64,000 bases of DNA from Escherichia coli (lineage in GTDB: Bacteria; Pseudomonadota; Gammaproteobacteria; Enterobacterales; Enterobacteriaceae). Below, piece after piece: positions 18,001 to 24,000 of the stretch. Position numbers: made by a program. Location of the stretch: the NCBI RefSeq assembly GCF_051903065.1, contig NZ_CP178438.1. The stretch is one strand, 5' to 3'. Position 1 is the first letter of the stretch. Every line of letters starts with the position of its first letter.

Positions 18001-21000
18001 GCGACCACGATGCACTCTTCCGCCATCCCGCCATCAACGCTGTATCCGGCATTTTTAACTGAACGGCAGAGCGTTTCGTTACCACTGTTACAGTATTCGC
18101 AATGACCGCATCCTTCGTAGAACCACGCCACGCTGGCACGATCGCCTGGTTTTAATGAGGTGACACCTGGACCCACTTCTGCCACCACACCAATCCCTTC
18201 ATGGCCCAGAATTACGCCGGTTTTGTCACCAAAATCGCCATTCTTAACATGAAGATCGGTATGACATACACCACAACACTCCATTTTCAGCAGGGCTTCG
18301 CCATGTTTCAGTGAGCGCAGTGTTTTATCCGTAACGTCAACATGATGAGCCTTCATAGTTCCTCCTTTTCGGATGATGTTCTGCATAGCAGGTGAGGCAA
18401 ATGAGATTTATTCGCCACTACCCAGTATGGATGAGATCTGAAAAAGGGAGAGGGAAATTGCCCGGTAGCCTTCACTACCGGGCGCAGGCTTAGATGGAGG
18501 TACGGCGGTAGTCGCGGTATTCGGCTTGCCAGAAATTATCGTCAATGGCCTGTTGCAGGGCTTCGGCAGAGGTTTTCACCGCCACGCCTTGCTGCTGCGC
18601 CATTTTGCCAACCGCAAACGCAATTGCGCGGGAGACTTTCTGAATATCTTTCAGTTCCGGCAGTACCATACCTTCGCCGTTCAGCACCAATGGTGAATAC
18701 TGCGCCAGCGTTTCACTTGCCGACATCAGCATCTCATCGGTGATACGTGACGCGCCGGAAGCAATAACCCCCAGGCCGATGCCCGGGAAAATAAAGGCGT
18801 TGTTACACTGGGCGATAGGGTAGATTTTATCTTTCCATACCACTGGATTAAACGGGCTGCCAGTGGCGACCAGCGCGTTACCTTCAGTCCAGGCGATAAT
18901 GTCCTGCGGTGTGGCTTCCACGCGTGACGTCGGGTTAGACAGCGGCATCACGATCGGACGCGGACAGTGTTTATGCATCTCACGGATGATCTCTTCCGTA
19001 AACAGCCCGGTCTGTCCTGAGACGCCAATCAGAATATCTGGTTTTACATTGCGCACCACATCCAGCAGTGACAGCACATCGCTGTCGGTATCCCAGTCAC
19101 TGAGGTTTTCGCGCTTCTGCACCAGTTTGGTCTGGAAAGGCAGCAGGTTCGGCATCTTGTCGGTCAGCAGGCCAAAGCGATCGACCATAAAGACTTTCTG
19201 CCGTGCTGCTTCCTCGCTTAATCCTTCACGCTGGGTCTGGGCGATGATCATTTCGGCAATGCCGCATCCCGCTGAACCTGCGCCAAGGAAGACGATTTTT
19301 TTCTCGCTTAACTGACCACCTGCCGCGCGGCTTGCTGCGATCAGTGTGCCGACTGTTACCGCCGCAGTGCCCTGAATGTCATCGTTAAAGGAACAAATTT
19401 CATTGCGATAGCGGTTAAGTAACGGCATCGCATTTTTTTGTGCGAAGTCTTCAAACTGCAACAGCACGTCCGGCCAGCGTTGTTTCACAGCCTGGATAAA
19501 TTCATCAACGAATTCATAGTATTCGTCGTCTGTGATACGCGGATTACGCCAGCCCATATACAGCGGATCGTTAAGCAGCTGTTGGTTGTTGGTGCCGACA
19601 TCCAGCACCACCGGAAGGGTATACGCCGGGCTGATGCCGCCACAGGCGGTATAGAGCGACAGTTTACCGATCGGAATGCCCATCCCGCCGATGCCCTGGT
19701 CACCAAGCCCCAGAATACGTTCACCGTCAGTCACCACAATCACTTTGATATTATGGTTTGGTACGTTTTGCAGAATATCGTCCATATTGTGGCGGTTCTG
19801 GTAAGAGATAAACACGCCGCGTGAACGGCGGTAGATCTCAGAAAAACGCTCACAGGCTGCGCCGACGGTTGGGGTATAAATAACAGGCATCATCTCATCA
19901 AGATGATTGTTTACCAGACGGTAGAAGAGGGTTTCGTTGGTGTCCTGGATGTTACGCAGGTAGATGTGTTTGTCGATTTCGGTTTTGAATCCCTGATACT
20001 GGATCCATGCTCGTTCCGCTTGTTCTTCGATGGTTTCGACCACTTCCGGCAGTAACCCCAGCAGGTTGAAGTTACGGCGTTCTTCCATGCTGAAGGCACT
20101 GCCTTTATTCAACAACGGAAATTCCAGCAGTACAGGGCCAGCGTAAGGGATATAAAGCGAACGCTGTTTTTTTGTTTTTGGTTCCATGTCACTCACTCTT
20201 TTTTGAATATCCATCCCTGGGGGCTTTTATCGTCTTTGCTTTACCGCCAGGGCGTCGGCCCCAAGTATAAAGCAGATAAAAACAAAAACACCATTGCGCA
20301 GGCAATGGTGTTTAATCGTCATTGAGGACTGATGGTTATGAATTACTTTTCAGCGGGGCGTTTTCTGCCGGTTGGGTTATTTACCACGCTGGATTTGTCA
20401 CCTTCGGTAACTATTTTGCGCTGGTTAGAAATTTTATGGTCCAGTCCAAGAATATGACGTGCCTGACGGTTCGATTTCATTTTAACTCCTCAATCCTGTT
20501 GCTAGTTTTAAGGACAACATCGCCGTAGCGAAGAAACACGTGCTAAACCCCTAAATTAGGTTGCCGATCAAGCATAGCACCTTAAAGCGTAGGGTGCTGG
20601 CCACTGACCACATAATTGATCGTTTGCTGGTAGATATCACTGAGGATGTCGTTATCAGAAGCTTCCACCCATTTGGTCAACTCCATGAGAATATCATCTT
20701 CAGTGACAACACCATGCTCTGCCCGAAGGCCTTGCTCAATGGCATTAACCAGAGCGGGTTCTGCTGTTGAATTTTCTGCCTGATAATAAGTAAACATAGT
20801 GATTCTCCGTGTCTGTGTATTTATAGTGTCTGCTACGGATCGCAGATTTATAAAGCACATTCAGCATGGCAAATATTTGCCGCTTCGTTGTTAAGATTAG
20901 TCCTGGTTGATGATTTTTATATTTTAACCCCATGATATTGATAGGTATTATTATTGTGGTGAGTTGATTGATATTGATGCAATATCTCTTGAGATATATA

Positions 21001-24000
21001 TTCCGGGTTATCTATTGTGGGAATTTAATTTAAGTGCAGAAGTAATATTTTCGCCGTATTTTATTCGGAATATCCTGCTTATCCTCGTGCTGTTTCTCAC
21101 GTAGTCTATAATTTCCTTTTTAAGCCCACAGGAGAGCAACAATGACAATCCATAAGAAAGGTCAGGCACACTGGGAAGGCGATATCAAACGCGGGAAGGG
21201 AACAGTATCCACCGAGAGTGGCGTGCTGAACCAACAGCCGTATGGATTTAACACGCGTTTTGAAGGCGAAAAAGGAACCAACCCTGAAGAACTGATTGGC
21301 GCAGCGCATGCCGCATGTTTCTCAATGGCGCTTTCATTAATGCTGGGGGAAGCGGGATTCACGCCAACATCGATTGATACCACCGCCGATGTGTCGCTGG
21401 ATAAAGTGGATGCCGGTTTTGCGATTACGAAAATCGCACTGAAGAGTGAAGTTGCGGTGCCGGGTATTGATGCCTCTACCTTTGACGGCATCATCCAGAA
21501 AGCAAAAGCAGGATGCCCGGTCTCTCAGGTACTGAAAGCGGAAATTACGCTGGATTACCAGTTGAAATCGTAAAGCATTGCCGGATGACGCGTCAGGCGC
21601 GTGAATGCCTGATGCGTTGTTAGCATCTCTACAGCGCCCGCCAGCACCGGAGCTCACGTCCGTCCTCCCTTATTGCTAATGATTGCCGGACTTCACATCC
21701 GTGGGTTGCAAGGGGGCAACGTTCGCGGAAAAAACAGCCTTGCGGCAACGTGCGGTTTCCCGGCAGTTCCGTTTTACGTAATGCCCATTCTTCCTCCAGC
21801 GGTTTATCAATGGCGGGGAGGGAGTCCAGCAATAATCGGGTGTACGGATGTGCCGGAGCCGTCAGTACCTGTTGCGCGTCGCCCAGTTCTACAATCTGCC
21901 CGAGATACATCACCGCTACCCGATCGCTCATATGACGAATCACCGAGACATTGTGTGAAATCAGCACATAAGTCAGCCCGTGATTTTCCTGTAGCGTTAC
22001 CAGTAAATTGAGGATCTGCGCCTGCACGGAGATATCCAGCGCCGAGGTTGGCTCATCAAGCACAATCACGTCAGGCTGCGAAGAGAGTGCTCTGGCAATG
22101 GCGATGCGTTGCCGCTGCCCGCCGGAGAACGCATGAGGCAGGCGGTCGAGATACTCCGGACGAATACCCACCTGCACAGCCAGCTCCTCTGCCAACGCTC
22201 GCCGCTGTTGTTCACTACTACGCTTAGCTATCCAGAGCGGTTCTGTGATGATGCGCCACACCGGTAAGCGCGGATTGAGCGAAGAGAGCGGGTCCTGAAA
22301 CACCATCTGCATAATGCGTTGTGAGCCAGAACGGATGTATTGCCCGTGGCTCGGTTGCAGCATACCCATTAAAAGCTGTGCGAGGGTGCTTTTGCCGCAG
22401 CCTGACTCGCCGACGATCCCTAAGGTTTCACCACGGCGGATCTGTAAATCAATACCATTAATGGCATGAACATGTTCCGTAGTTTTACCAAGCCAGTTTT
22501 TACGGGCCGGGAAATTGATATGGACGTCGCGTAACGTTAATAACGTGTCAGACACTTATGACCTCCTGCTGCGGATACCAACAGGCGCAGCACTGGTTGT
22601 TGTCACCACACGCTGTCAGCGCCGGGACGTTTTCACACTGTGCACCTGCCGCATAGCAACGATCGCGAAAAGCGCAGCCGTCAGGCAAATGGGTGAGGTT
22701 TGGTACCGTCCCTGGAATGGCGGGTAATAGCTGGCGTGGTACTCCATGTTCTGGTGCGCATTGCAGCAAACCAATGGTATACGGATGCCGGGGATGATGG
22801 ATAACGTCTGCCGTCACGCCGCTTTCAATTACGCTTCCGGCATACATCACGTAAACGCTATCGCACAGTTGCGACACCACGGCCATATCATGGCTGATGA
22901 ACAGAACCGCAGTTCCACTGGCGCGGGCTTTATGTTTAAGCAAACGCAGTACCTGCAACTGCACCGTGACGTCCAGCGCCGTAGTCGGTTCGTCGGCAAT
23001 AATCAATTGCGGCTCGCAGGAGAATGCCAGCGCAATCATTACCCGCTGGCGCATACCACCTGAAAGCTCAAACGGATAGCGCGATATAACTTCCACGGCA
23101 TCCGGGATTTGCATCTCTTCCAGCAGGGCAATCGCTTTAGCTCTGGCTTCCCGACGACTTATTGGTTGATGATGGCGGATCACGTCCATCATCTGAAGAC
23201 CTATTCGAAGTGTCGGATTGAGGGCGGTCATCGGTTCCTGAAAGATCATCGCCACTCGTGCGCCGCGCCACTGACGAAGCTGTTTTTCCCGAGCGTTAAG
23301 AACATCGTCTCCCAGCAGTGAAATCTGCCCCCGATGTACGCAATAACTGCCCGTCGGTAGCAGACGCATAATCAGCATTGCGGTGACTGATTTACCTGAG
23401 CCGGATTCTCCCACCAGACCGACAATTTCACCGCGGTTAATCTGCAAGGACACATTGTTGAGCGCGTGAACATCACCGTTAAAACCGGGGAAACTCAAAT
23501 GCAGCTGTTGAATGTCCAGAACGGGTTGGGTCATGACTGCTTTCCTCCTGCTTTCGGGTCAAGCAGATCGCGAATACCATCACCAAAGAGATTAAACCCA
23601 ACGGCGGTAAGCAAAATCGCTGCCCCCGGAAATGCGCAATACCACCACTGATCGAGTACATAGTTGCGACCATTCGCTACCATCGCGCCCCATTCAGCAC
23701 TCGGTTGTTGAGCACCCAGGCCAATAAATCCCAACGTGGCGGCCATTAAAATCGCGCTACCGATATCCAGCGATGCCTGCACGATCAGCGGCGGCAGGGA
23801 GTTACGTAAAATATGCCAGCTGATCAGATGCCAACGCGACGCACCAAAGGTTTTCGCCGCCTGAACATAGGTATACTGGCGTACAACTAATGCTTGCCCC
23901 CGCGCCAGGCGCACATAAAAGGGAATTCGCACAATAGCAATCGCCAGCATGGCGTTAAATAAACTCGGCCCGAGAGCGGCAGCCAGTGCCATTGTCAGTA

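What the first reader, a model, noticed from the sequence alone, without database searches (positions are those of the whole stretch)
20861..21141. Divergent bdm-osmC control region with a candidate RcsB box
TAAGATTAGTCCTG resembles the RcsB box and sits in the 345-bp spacer between two stress genes known to respond to the Rcs phosphorelay. One site may serve one or both promoters.
Basis: partly seen in the sequence, partly recalled or inferred. Interest (0 to 1): 0.25.

Follow-up and report, generated by a model that had tools for sequence, protein, structure and literature searches.

The report
Known RcsB box of bdm promoter
The 14-base sequence is a real, deeply conserved docking site for the envelope-stress regulator RcsB that switches on the small E. 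coli gene bdm, but this regulation is already described and the neighbouring gene osmC has its own separate site.

Summary
The window is E. coli chromosome (sra-bdm | osmC | ddpF). TAAGATTAGTCCTG is present once, at 20892-20905, in the bdm-osmC spacer. That spacer is 344 bp (20798-21141), not 345.

The motif match alone is weak. It has one mismatch to the structural RcsB consensus TN(G/A)GAN4TC(T/C)NA, and matches that good occur 39 times in 64 kb.

Comparative evidence is strong. In 39 of 40 genomes from about 12 genera, a box with at most one mismatch sits 101-111 bp before the bdm ATG. The half-sites are nearly invariant, the central 4 bp vary, and the spacing to a conserved -35/extended -10 is ungapped. 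I predict the box centre at -42.5. The box stays with bdm where osmC is absent (Enterobacter, Lelliottia) or separated by a whole gene (Leclercia, Silvania).

osmC has its own box-like sequence, TCGGAATATCCTGC (21065-21078), next to its promoters and 173 bp away.

Held papers show Rcs control of both genes. In Salmonella, a ChIP-seq peak for RtsB (RcsB-like motif) falls on the orthologous box.

"RcsB box" is supported. "One site may serve both promoters" is not supported. The regulation is already known (Francez-Charlot 2005; Davalos-Garcia 2001; Sturny 2003), so interest is low.

The parts
20892..20905 (-). RcsB box of the bdm promoter. It reads CAGGACTAATCTTA on the bdm strand and TAAGATTAGTCCTG on the + strand. 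It is a pseudo-palindrome of two 5-bp half-sites separated by 4 bp.
   Evidence: Unique in the window. One mismatch to TN(G/A)GAN4TC(T/C)NA. 11/14 plus all five capitals of the RcsAB consensus. A box with <=1 mismatch is present in 39/40 Bdm-encoding loci, 8 of them perfect. Half-site columns are invariant or switch only between allowed bases, while the central 4 columns vary.
20886..20891 (-). Predicted weak -35 hexamer of the bdm promoter (ACAACG here, nnCACA in most genera), directly abutting the box.
   Evidence: A and C at 20888 and 20887 are invariant in 41/41 sequences, and A is at 20886 in 34/41. It sits 17 bp from the predicted -10. This is inference from the alignment; no TSS data were obtainable here.
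20863..20871 (-). Predicted extended -10 of the bdm promoter: TGc CATGCT (TG at 20871-20870, hexamer 20868->20863).
   Evidence: It is the most conserved block downstream of the box (TTTGCCATnCT; 38-40 of 41 at key positions). There are no gaps between the box and this block in 39 of the 41 aligned sequences; the exceptions are L038 and L039.
20856..20856 (-). Predicted bdm transcription start (G invariant in 41/41; equals MG1655 1556339). It gives a 59-nt leader and puts the box centre at -42.5.
   Evidence: Position is inferred from the -10; the coordinate offset comes. RNA-seq-based transcript starts for Salmonella yddX lie 7-41 nt before the ATG (supplement of PMC5013294). That fits a proximal promoter, but the estimate is imprecise.
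20582..20797 (-). bdm coding sequence (71 aa plus stop), the gene controlled by the box.
   Evidence: RefSeq NP_415998.4 is 71 aa. The conserved Shine-Dalgarno sequence ACGGAGG lies just before this ATG in all genera.
21065..21078 (+). Separate osmC-proximal RcsB-type box TCGGAATATCCTGC, abutting a -35-like TTATCC (21079-21084). This is the probable published osmCp1 RcsB site.
   Evidence: One mismatch to the lower-affinity variant TN(G/A)GAN4(A/C)CTNA and two to the main consensus. A box with <=1 mismatch sits at the same distance (-77 to -79 from the osmC ATG) in E. coli, Pseudenterobacter, Leclercia and Silvania. Identical in MG1655. RcsB-D56E DNase I protection at osmCp1 is reported in the literature.
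21106..21112 (+). osmC proximal promoter -10 (cTATAAT), the sigma-S type osmCp2.
   Evidence: TCTATAaT/TCTATAcT is invariant at 6 of 7 positions in all 19 osmC-adjacent loci. The assignment to osmCp2 rests on established knowledge (Gordia & Gutierrez 1996, from memory).
21142..21573 (+). osmC coding sequence (143 aa).

Best explanation
The sequence at 20892-20905 is the RcsB-binding box of the bdm promoter.

Proposed mechanism: when the Rcs phosphorelay is activated by envelope or osmotic stress, phosphorylated RcsB binds the two half-sites (TAAGA / CAGGA), probably as a homodimer. The site directly abuts a poor -35 element. From a position centred about -42.5, RcsB recruits or stabilises sigma-70 RNA polymerase on a promoter that otherwise has only an extended -10. 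This turns on bdm, and probably the downstream sra.

The box acts on bdm only. osmC, transcribed the other way, is activated through its own weaker box at 21065-21078, next to the -35 of its distal promoter osmCp1.

What is shown here: the presence of the site, its deep conservation, its fixed register with the bdm core promoter, and its independence from osmC. What comes from papers read here: the Rcs dependence of both genes. What is inferred: the transcription start, the class-II-like activation mechanism and the homodimer stoichiometry.
For: (1) Sequence. One mismatch to the crystal-structure-derived RcsB consensus and the best match in the spacer. 11/14 plus all five capitals of the RcsAB consensus, unique in 64 kb.

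(2) Phylogenetic footprint.
- 39/40 loci from Escherichia, Salmonella, Citrobacter, Intestinirhabdus, Enterobacter, Lelliottia, Leclercia, Silvania, Pseudenterobacter, Huaxiibacter and others carry a box with <=1 mismatch, 101-111 bp before the bdm ATG.
- The consensus-specified columns are 40-41/41 invariant or switch only between permitted bases. The central N4 varies, with information content 0.56-1.5 bits.
- Sequence further upstream is unalignable between genera.

(3) Rigid, ungapped spacing from the box to the conserved nnnACA, then 17 bp, then TGcCATnCT.

(4) Independence from osmC.
- The box is retained where osmC is not adjacent.
- Where a 173-aa gene lies between the two genes, each spacer keeps its own box.
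- The distance between the two boxes ranges from 155 to about 665 bp.

(5) Within-species conservation. The 60 bp spanning the predicted start site to the box are 100% identical in about 4070 of 5401 E. coli genomes. The sampled variants fall outside the box.

(6) Expression, from papers.
- bdm falls 11.5-fold in an rcsB-disrupted O157 isolate (PMC5343319).
- bdm rises 88-139-fold and osmC 9-17-fold on LolCDE inhibition, which induces Rcs-regulated genes (PMC5105897).
- bdm is induced by colicin M along with the Rcs regulon, and that paper states that Bdm is positively regulated by RcsB, citing Francez-Charlot 2005 (PMC3599342).
- The stronger response of bdm fits its better box.

(7) In vivo occupancy of the ortholog. 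In S. Typhimurium 14028s the ChIP-seq peak of RtsB, whose motif closely resembles RcsB's, is at 1655067. That is 91 bp before the yddX (= bdm) ATG at 1655158, inside the predicted orthologous box (-103 to -90). RtsB changes yddX expression by log2 -2.96 (PMC5013294).

(8) Reviews state that RcsB homodimer sites usually lie just upstream of the -35 (PMC5651002).
Against: - No direct RcsB-DNA binding data for this exact E. coli site could be read here. The primary papers are not in the held library.
- The bdm transcription start is predicted, not measured. The generic sigma-70 scan found no minus-strand promoter, which is expected for an activator-dependent promoter but is not positive evidence.
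- The consensus is loose, so the match itself is statistically weak.
- The aligned genomes are related by descent, so part of the conservation is shared ancestry.
- The Salmonella box position in strain 14028s is extrapolated from subsp. arizonae and diarizonae loci (L005, L006).
Confidence: 0.87

Rival explanations
1. One shared operator: the single box at 20892-20905 activates both divergent promoters, bdm and osmC.
For: Both genes are induced together when Rcs is activated. In Salmonella, a published genome-wide motif search assigned one box in the spacer, a different mid-spacer one, to both osmC and yddX (PMC7913699).
Against: - The box centre lies about 215-220 bp from the osmC start region, far beyond the position adjacent to the -35 that is described as usual for RcsB activation.
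- osmC has its own box at a conserved distance from its ATG.
- RcsB protection was reported at osmCp1 itself.
- The inter-box distance is not conserved, ranging from 155 to about 665 bp.
- The box persists with bdm where osmC is absent or separated by a gene.
Confidence: 0.05
2. The box is mainly the target of an RcsB heteromer or a paralogous FixJ/NarL-type regulator (RcsA-RcsB, or an RtsB-like competitor) rather than the RcsB homodimer.
For: - The site matches the RcsAB consensus well.
- In Salmonella the RcsB-like protein RtsB occupies the orthologous position and represses yddX.
- The promoter-distal half-site is CAGGA rather than TNRGA in 33/41 sequences and switches as a unit to TAAGA in 8. 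This could reflect a partner's preference.
Against: - Both half-sites fit the RcsB homodimer read-out (RGA...TCY) seen in crystal structures.
- rtsB is a Salmonella gene, and no E. coli counterpart was looked for here.
- From memory only, and unverified here: bdm was described as RcsA-independent.
- This rival is not exclusive of the main explanation, because RcsB is still the bound protein in the heteromer cases.
Confidence: 0.07
3. A chance resemblance in AT-rich intergenic DNA with no regulatory role.
For: Matches with <=1 mismatch to the loose consensus occur 39 times in 64 kb, and in 41% of random spacer-like sequences.
Against: - The half-sites are conserved while the central 4 bp vary.
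- The register with the core promoter is fixed across about 12 genera, next to flanks that cannot be aligned.
- A ChIP-seq peak lies on the Salmonella ortholog.
- bdm shows strong Rcs dependence.
Confidence: 0.01

Closest known systems
RcsB box of the E. coli bdm promoter (Francez-Charlot, Castanie-Cornet, Gutierrez & Cam 2005, J Bacteriol 187:3873, PMC1112044)
   Same: Same gene, same organism, same regulator. Papers read here confirm that this study established RcsCDB-dependent osmotic induction of bdm. From memory, it placed an RcsB box immediately upstream of the bdm -35, which is where the present site lies.
   Different: Nothing substantive. The exact published coordinates could not be checked because the paper is not held. 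The 40-genome footprint and the demonstration that the box travels with bdm without osmC come from this analysis.
RcsB/NhaR site of osmCp1 (Davalos-Garcia et al. 2001, PMC99664; Sturny et al. 2003, PMC165750)
   Same: An RcsB-activated promoter in the same spacer, with a box adjacent to the -35. RcsB-D56E DNase I protection is reported there.
   Different: It is a poorer match (2 mismatches against 1) and less conserved, with no clear box at that position in Salmonella or Citrobacter. It overlaps an NhaR site according to the paper's title.
RcsB homodimer box TN(G/A)GAN4TC(T/C)NA (Huesa et al. 2021, PMC7913699) and RcsAB box TaAGaatatTCcta (Wehland & Bernhard 2000)
   Same: A 14-bp pseudo-palindrome with RGA...TCY cores separated by the same spacing. 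It matches 13/14 and 11/14 positions respectively.
   Different: The terminal A is G (equivalently, the distal half-site begins with C) in E. coli and 32 of the other 40 sequences. A strict zero-mismatch search therefore misses it. That appears to be why the Salmonella genome scan reported a mid-spacer box (TGAGATTTATCCTA, 269 bp before yddX) instead of the conserved proximal one.
RtsB binding upstream of Salmonella yddX (Smith et al. 2016, PMC5013294)
   Same: The orthologous promoter and an RcsB-like motif. The ChIP-seq peak lies within the predicted orthologous box.
   Different: The protein is different: RtsB has a DNA-binding domain only, and is a Salmonella protein. The effect is opposite (repression).

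Membership tests
RcsB box (RcsB homodimer operator) | 14-bp pseudo-palindrome matching TN(G/A)GAN4TC(T/C)NA | tested here: met
   TAAGATTAGTCCTG matches 13/14 positions, or 9 of the 10 specified ones; the only mismatch is the terminal A->G. Orthologs in 8 genomes are perfect matches.
RcsB box (RcsB homodimer operator) | Selective conservation of the contacted half-sites relative to the central spacer | tested here: met
   The half-site columns are 40-41/41 invariant or show only R/Y-compatible switches. The central four columns carry 0.56-1.5 bits.
RcsB box (RcsB homodimer operator) | Position just upstream of, or abutting, the -35 of the activated promoter | tested here: inconclusive
   The box abuts a conserved nnnACA / 17 bp / TGcCATnCT element in a fixed register in 39 of the 41 aligned sequences. 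That predicts a centre at -42.5. The transcription start is predicted only: TSS supplements gave nothing, and Salmonella RNA-seq starts are only roughly consistent.
RcsB box (RcsB homodimer operator) | RcsB-dependent expression of the adjacent gene | tested here: met
   This is evidence from papers read here, not an experiment of mine. bdm falls 11.5-fold in an rcsB-disrupted strain. It rises 88-139-fold under conditions that induce Rcs-regulated genes. It is cited as positively regulated by RcsB.
RcsB box (RcsB homodimer operator) | Direct binding of RcsB to the site (footprint, EMSA or ChIP) | not testable with these tools
   No E. coli RcsB binding data for this site could be read. There is indirect support from the RtsB (RcsB-like motif) ChIP-seq peak at the orthologous Salmonella box.
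RcsAB box (RcsA-RcsB heterodimer operator) | Match to TaAGaatatTCcta including the five most conserved bases | tested here: met
   11/14 with all five capitals; the only such site in the 64 kb; P about 0.018 per spacer-like sequence.
RcsAB box (RcsA-RcsB heterodimer operator) | Dependence of regulation on RcsA | not testable with these tools
   No data were retrieved on this point.
Shared operator of divergent promoters (one site serving bdm and osmC) | The site lies within activating distance of both promoters | tested here: not met
   The box centre at 20898.5 is about 208 bp from the invariant osmC -10 (21107-21112) and 173 bp from osmC's own box.
Shared operator of divergent promoters (one site serving bdm and osmC) | The site is co-inherited with both genes and keeps a constant distance to both | tested here: not met
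   The box is present upstream of bdm in genomes where osmC is not adjacent. In Leclercia, Silvania and Pseudenterobacter a 173-aa gene separates it from osmC.

The most novel reading that the evidence does not exclude
The bdm box may be a conserved docking point where several FixJ/NarL-type proteins compete or cooperate, rather than a simple RcsB homodimer site. Candidates are RcsB as activator, RtsB in Salmonella as repressor, and possibly an unidentified partner in E. coli. On this reading, the unit-like switch of the distal half-site between CAGGA and TAAGA marks two affinity or partner states, and has arisen at least twice (it differs within Silvania). A smaller related point: the published Salmonella assignment of yddX/osmC regulation to a mid-spacer motif would be wrong, and the conserved proximal box, missed by a zero-mismatch search, would be the functional one.
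Probability: 0.12. Interest if true: 0.3.

Novelty: already known. Interest (0 to 1): 0.08.

Why it matters
It matters little beyond correct annotation. Rcs control of bdm and osmC has been textbook material for this phosphorelay since 2001-2005.

The useful outcomes are practical:
- The loose RcsB consensus cannot identify sites by matching alone. Here it was conservation and promoter register that separated the real site from 38 equally good matches in the same window.
- Zero-mismatch genome scans miss this well-conserved site, because its terminal base deviates from the consensus.

Tried and rejected
- Primary papers. I tried to read Francez-Charlot 2005, Davalos-Garcia 2001 and Sturny 2003 by DOI and by PMC id. 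None is held, so the published box coordinates rest on my memory plus secondary citations.
- Measured E. coli bdm transcription start. I searched supplements of two TSS papers and a RegulonDB evidence paper. Nothing usable was found.
- Generic sigma-70 scan. It found only plus-strand AT-rich hits and no bdm promoter. I treat this as uninformative for an activator-dependent promoter.
- Terminator-like hairpin at 20867-20882. It is on the wrong strand for any gene end and lies inside the bdm core promoter, so I rejected it as a terminator.
- My first guess for the osmC box, TGAGATATATATTC at 20990-21003. It has 2 mismatches and is not conserved even against MG1655, where it reads TGGGTTATATATTC. 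Rejected.
- Rfam scan of 20200-21700. Only sub-threshold chance hits, so there is no known RNA element in the spacer.
- Filippova 2018 (the E. coli RcsB-DNA structure paper).
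Full report
**What is there**

The region 20400-21700 is E. coli chromosome. It matches 5413 of 5426 complete E. 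coli genomes at 95-100% identity, with the gene order sra-bdm (minus strand), osmC (plus strand), ddpF. By ORF listing and the RefSeq MG1655 annotation:
- bdm is 71 aa, with its ATG at 20797;
- osmC starts at 21142;
- the divergent spacer is 20798-21141, which is 344 bp.

The window maps to MG1655 by adding 1,535,483 to the coordinate. The strain is not K-12. The central part of the spacer (about 20928-21010) differs at many positions from MG1655, whereas both ends are identical.

That ATG is not the annotated start, and it lies upstream of the promoter predicted below.

**Is the match more than chance?**

The crystal-structure-based RcsB homodimer box is TN(G/A)GAN4TC(T/C)NA (Huesa et al. 2021, PMC7913699). 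Measured against it:
- The 14-mer has one mismatch (the last base is G, not A) and is the best match in the spacer.
- The consensus is loose. Matches with at most one mismatch occur at 39 positions in the 64 kb, and in 41% of random 344-bp sequences with the spacer's first-order composition.

Measured against the older RcsAB consensus TaAGaatatTCcta (quoted in PMC4325325):
- It scores 11/14 with all five strongly conserved bases.
- It is the only such site in the window, with P of about 0.018 per spacer-like sequence.

Matching alone therefore gives weak to moderate support.

**Comparative evidence**

A scan of one genome per species for Bdm homologues returned 40 loci. They come from Escherichia, Salmonella, Citrobacter, Intestinirhabdus, Enterobacter, Lelliottia, Leclercia, Silvania, Pseudenterobacter, Huaxiibacter and unnamed Enterobacteriaceae.

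In 39 of the 40, a box with at most one mismatch lies 101-111 bp before the bdm ATG. Eight of these are perfect, for example TAAGATGAATCTGA. The one remaining locus (L038) keeps a degenerate two-mismatch version at the same place.

Column by column, in bdm orientation, the box reads [C33/T8] A41 [G33/A8] G41 A40 NNNN T41 C41 T40 [G23/T18] A41. The positions that RcsB reads are fixed, or change only to permitted bases. The central four positions vary freely. DNA further upstream cannot be aligned between genera.

The box is followed, with no gap in 39 of the 41 aligned sequences (the exceptions are L038 and L039), by:
- a conserved nnnACA (20891->20886);
- 17 bp of spacer;
- a conserved TGc-CATnCT (20871->20863);
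- seven bases further on, a G invariant in 41/41 sequences (20856).

I read these as a poor -35, an extended -10 and the transcription start. That places the box centre at -42.5 and gives a 59-nt leader. The reading is an inference, because I could not obtain a measured E. coli start site. [quoted passage not shown] In Huesa's table the ytfK box lies at -50 to -36.

**Does the site serve osmC as well?**

The evidence says no.

1. Synteny. osmC is adjacent to bdm only in Escherichia, Salmonella, Citrobacter and Intestinirhabdus. In Enterobacter, Lelliottia and Huaxiibacter there is no osmC within 2 kb, yet the box and its register with bdm are intact. There, a co-directional 173-aa gene ends about 35 bp upstream of the box.

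2. Separation by a gene. In Leclercia, Silvania and Pseudenterobacter the same 173-aa gene lies between osmC and bdm. The 142-bp spacer before bdm holds the bdm box. The 134-bp spacer before osmC holds a second box.

3. A second box in E. coli. It is TCGGAATATCCTGC at 21065-21078.
   - It has one mismatch to the lower-affinity variant TN(G/A)GAN4(A/C)CTNA and two to the main consensus.
   - It abuts a -35-like TTATCC and lies 77 bp before the osmC ATG. That is the distance at which Leclercia, Silvania and Pseudenterobacter carry boxes with at most one mismatch.
   - This fits the literature. osmCp1 is the RcsB- and NhaR-activated distal promoter with "overlapping regulatory sites" (title of Sturny 2003), and RcsB-D56E protects osmCp1 from DNase I (paraphrase in PMC3013089).
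   - The exact register relative to the osmCp1 start is uncertain, with the box centre between about -37 and -43 depending on which start is used.

4. Distances. The two box centres are 173 bp apart in this strain, 155 bp in another E. coli and about 631-665 bp in other genera. No fixed spacing suggests cooperation.

**Functional evidence from papers**

- Several held papers cite Francez-Charlot et al. 2005 for positive regulation of bdm by RcsCDB after osmotic shock.
- bdm drops 11.5-fold in an O157:H7 isolate with a disrupted rcsB (PMC5343319).
- bdm rises 88-139-fold and osmC 9-17-fold when lipoprotein transport is blocked, a treatment that induces many Rcs-regulated genes (PMC5105897).
- bdm is induced by colicin M together with the rest of the Rcs regulon (PMC3599342).
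- In Salmonella, both osmC and yddX (= bdm) are higher with wild-type RcsB, at log2 2.67 and 2.96 (PMC7913699).

The larger response of bdm fits its better box.

**In vivo occupancy in Salmonella**

Smith et al. 2016 (PMC5013294) found that RtsB directly represses yddX (log2 -2.96). [quoted passage not shown]

Their peak list places the RtsB summit at 1655067, and the yddX ATG is at 1655158, so the summit is 91 bp upstream. In S. enterica subsp. arizonae and diarizonae the box, identical to E. coli's, spans -103 to -90. The summit therefore falls inside the predicted orthologous box. It is about 178 bp from the mid-spacer motif TGAGATTTATCCTA, which Huesa et al. assigned to both osmC and yddX.

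Two caveats apply. The position in strain 14028s is extrapolated from the other subspecies. RtsB is also not RcsB.

**Conservation within E. coli**

The 60 bp from the predicted start to just beyond the box are 100% identical in about 4070 of 5401 genomes, and at least 95% identical in the rest. In three sampled variants the changes lie outside the box. One strain carries an IS1 element inserted immediately distal to the box, leaving the box and the bdm promoter intact.

No Rfam family matches the spacer.

**Mechanism and confidence**

The most likely account (confidence about 0.87) runs as follows:
- Envelope or osmotic stress activates RcsF, RcsC and RcsD, which phosphorylate RcsB.
- An RcsB dimer binds the box abutting the weak -35 of bdm.
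- From there it activates a sigma-70 promoter that otherwise depends on an extended -10.
- osmC is activated independently through its own box.

Shown here: the existence of the site, its conservation, its register, and its independence from osmC. From papers: the Rcs dependence of both genes and RcsB binding at osmCp1. Inferred: the bdm start site, the class-II-like contact and the homodimer stoichiometry.

Rivals:
- A shared operator for both genes (0.05).
- A site used mainly by an RcsB heteromer or a paralogue (0.07; not exclusive of the main account).
- Chance (0.01).

**Comparison with what is known, and novelty**

This is the known Rcs-dependent bdm promoter. As far as I recall, the same box was described by Francez-Charlot et al. 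2005 immediately upstream of the bdm -35. I could not verify the published coordinates because that paper is not held.

The osmC box is the one studied by Davalos-Garcia 2001 and Sturny 2003.

The finding is therefore correct as an observation, half-right as an interpretation, and already known.

Minor additions from this analysis:
- the 40-genome footprint;
- the natural separation of the two boxes by a gene;
- the suggestion that the Salmonella genome-wide scan missed the conserved proximal box because of its terminal mismatch.

Noticed in passing
window 21065-21078; loci L005, L006, L008, L013, L015: The osmC-proximal RcsB-type box is much less conserved than the bdm box. Salmonella and Citrobacter show no match with <=1 mismatch at the equivalent -77 position. 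Published Salmonella work instead reports a perfect mid-spacer box (TGAGATTTATCCTA, 243 bp from osmC and 269 bp from yddX). Its stated positions relative to the listed start sites (-21 to -35 and -9 to +5) look better suited to repression than to the observed activation.
   Followed up: partly
window 20901-20906 (bdm-distal half-site); loci L020, L024, L025, L031, L032, L033, L035, L037: The distal half-site exists in only two forms, CCAGGA (33 sequences) and CTAAGA (8). The two variable columns always change together. The two Silvania species differ (L036 CAGGA, L037 TAAGA), so the switch arose more than once. No intermediates (CAAGA or TAGGA) were seen.
   Followed up: partly
window 20868-20881: A perfect 14-bp palindrome, GGCAAATATTTGCC, lies in the bdm promoter between the -35 and -10 and overlaps the extended -10. 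The terminator scan flagged it as a hairpin. Only its -10-proximal arm (AATATTTGCC) is conserved across genera, so it may be coincidental in Escherichia or a lineage-specific operator.
   Followed up: partly
L026 1337-1858; L022 1338-1859: A 173-aa gene ending in ...LRRWKP lies immediately upstream of bdm, co-directional with it, in Enterobacter, Lelliottia, Leclercia and Silvania. It is absent from the Escherichia, Salmonella and Citrobacter spacer. Its family was not identified here. Its gain or loss explains the different bdm-osmC distances.
   Followed up: partly
L044 (E. coli EC590, NZ_CP016182.2 2712857-2712947): An IS1 element is inserted directly next to the distal edge of the bdm box (TAAGATTAGTCCTGG|GGTAATGACTCC...). 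It cuts the bdm promoter plus box off from the rest of the spacer and from osmC.
   Followed up: partly
window 20928-21010: The middle of the bdm-osmC spacer is highly polymorphic between this strain and MG1655, with about 20 differences in about 80 bp. The roughly 130 bp at each end, which hold the two promoters and boxes, are almost identical to MG1655 (one difference each). The spacer is AT-rich: 35% GC against 48% for the window.
   Followed up: partly
L039 around 1891-1900 (E. coli E69): There is a one-base insertion inside the conserved extended -10 of bdm (TTTGCACATGCT instead of TTTGCCATGCT). This is either a sequencing error or a natural promoter-down allele.
   Followed up: no
window 20582-20860: The mechanical ORF for bdm extends to an upstream ATG at 20860 (92 aa). 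That start lies upstream of the predicted transcription start (20856), and the extension is not conserved. The annotated 71-aa start, with its conserved ACGGAGG ribosome-binding site, is the real one.
   Followed up: yes
Salmonella 14028s 1655067 (literature; orthologous to window about 20892-20905): Several direct RtsB targets in Salmonella (fepE, yddX, flhDC, bssR, the osmB leader) coincide with genes that carry RcsB boxes. This suggests systematic competition between RtsB and RcsB at shared boxes.
   Followed up: partly
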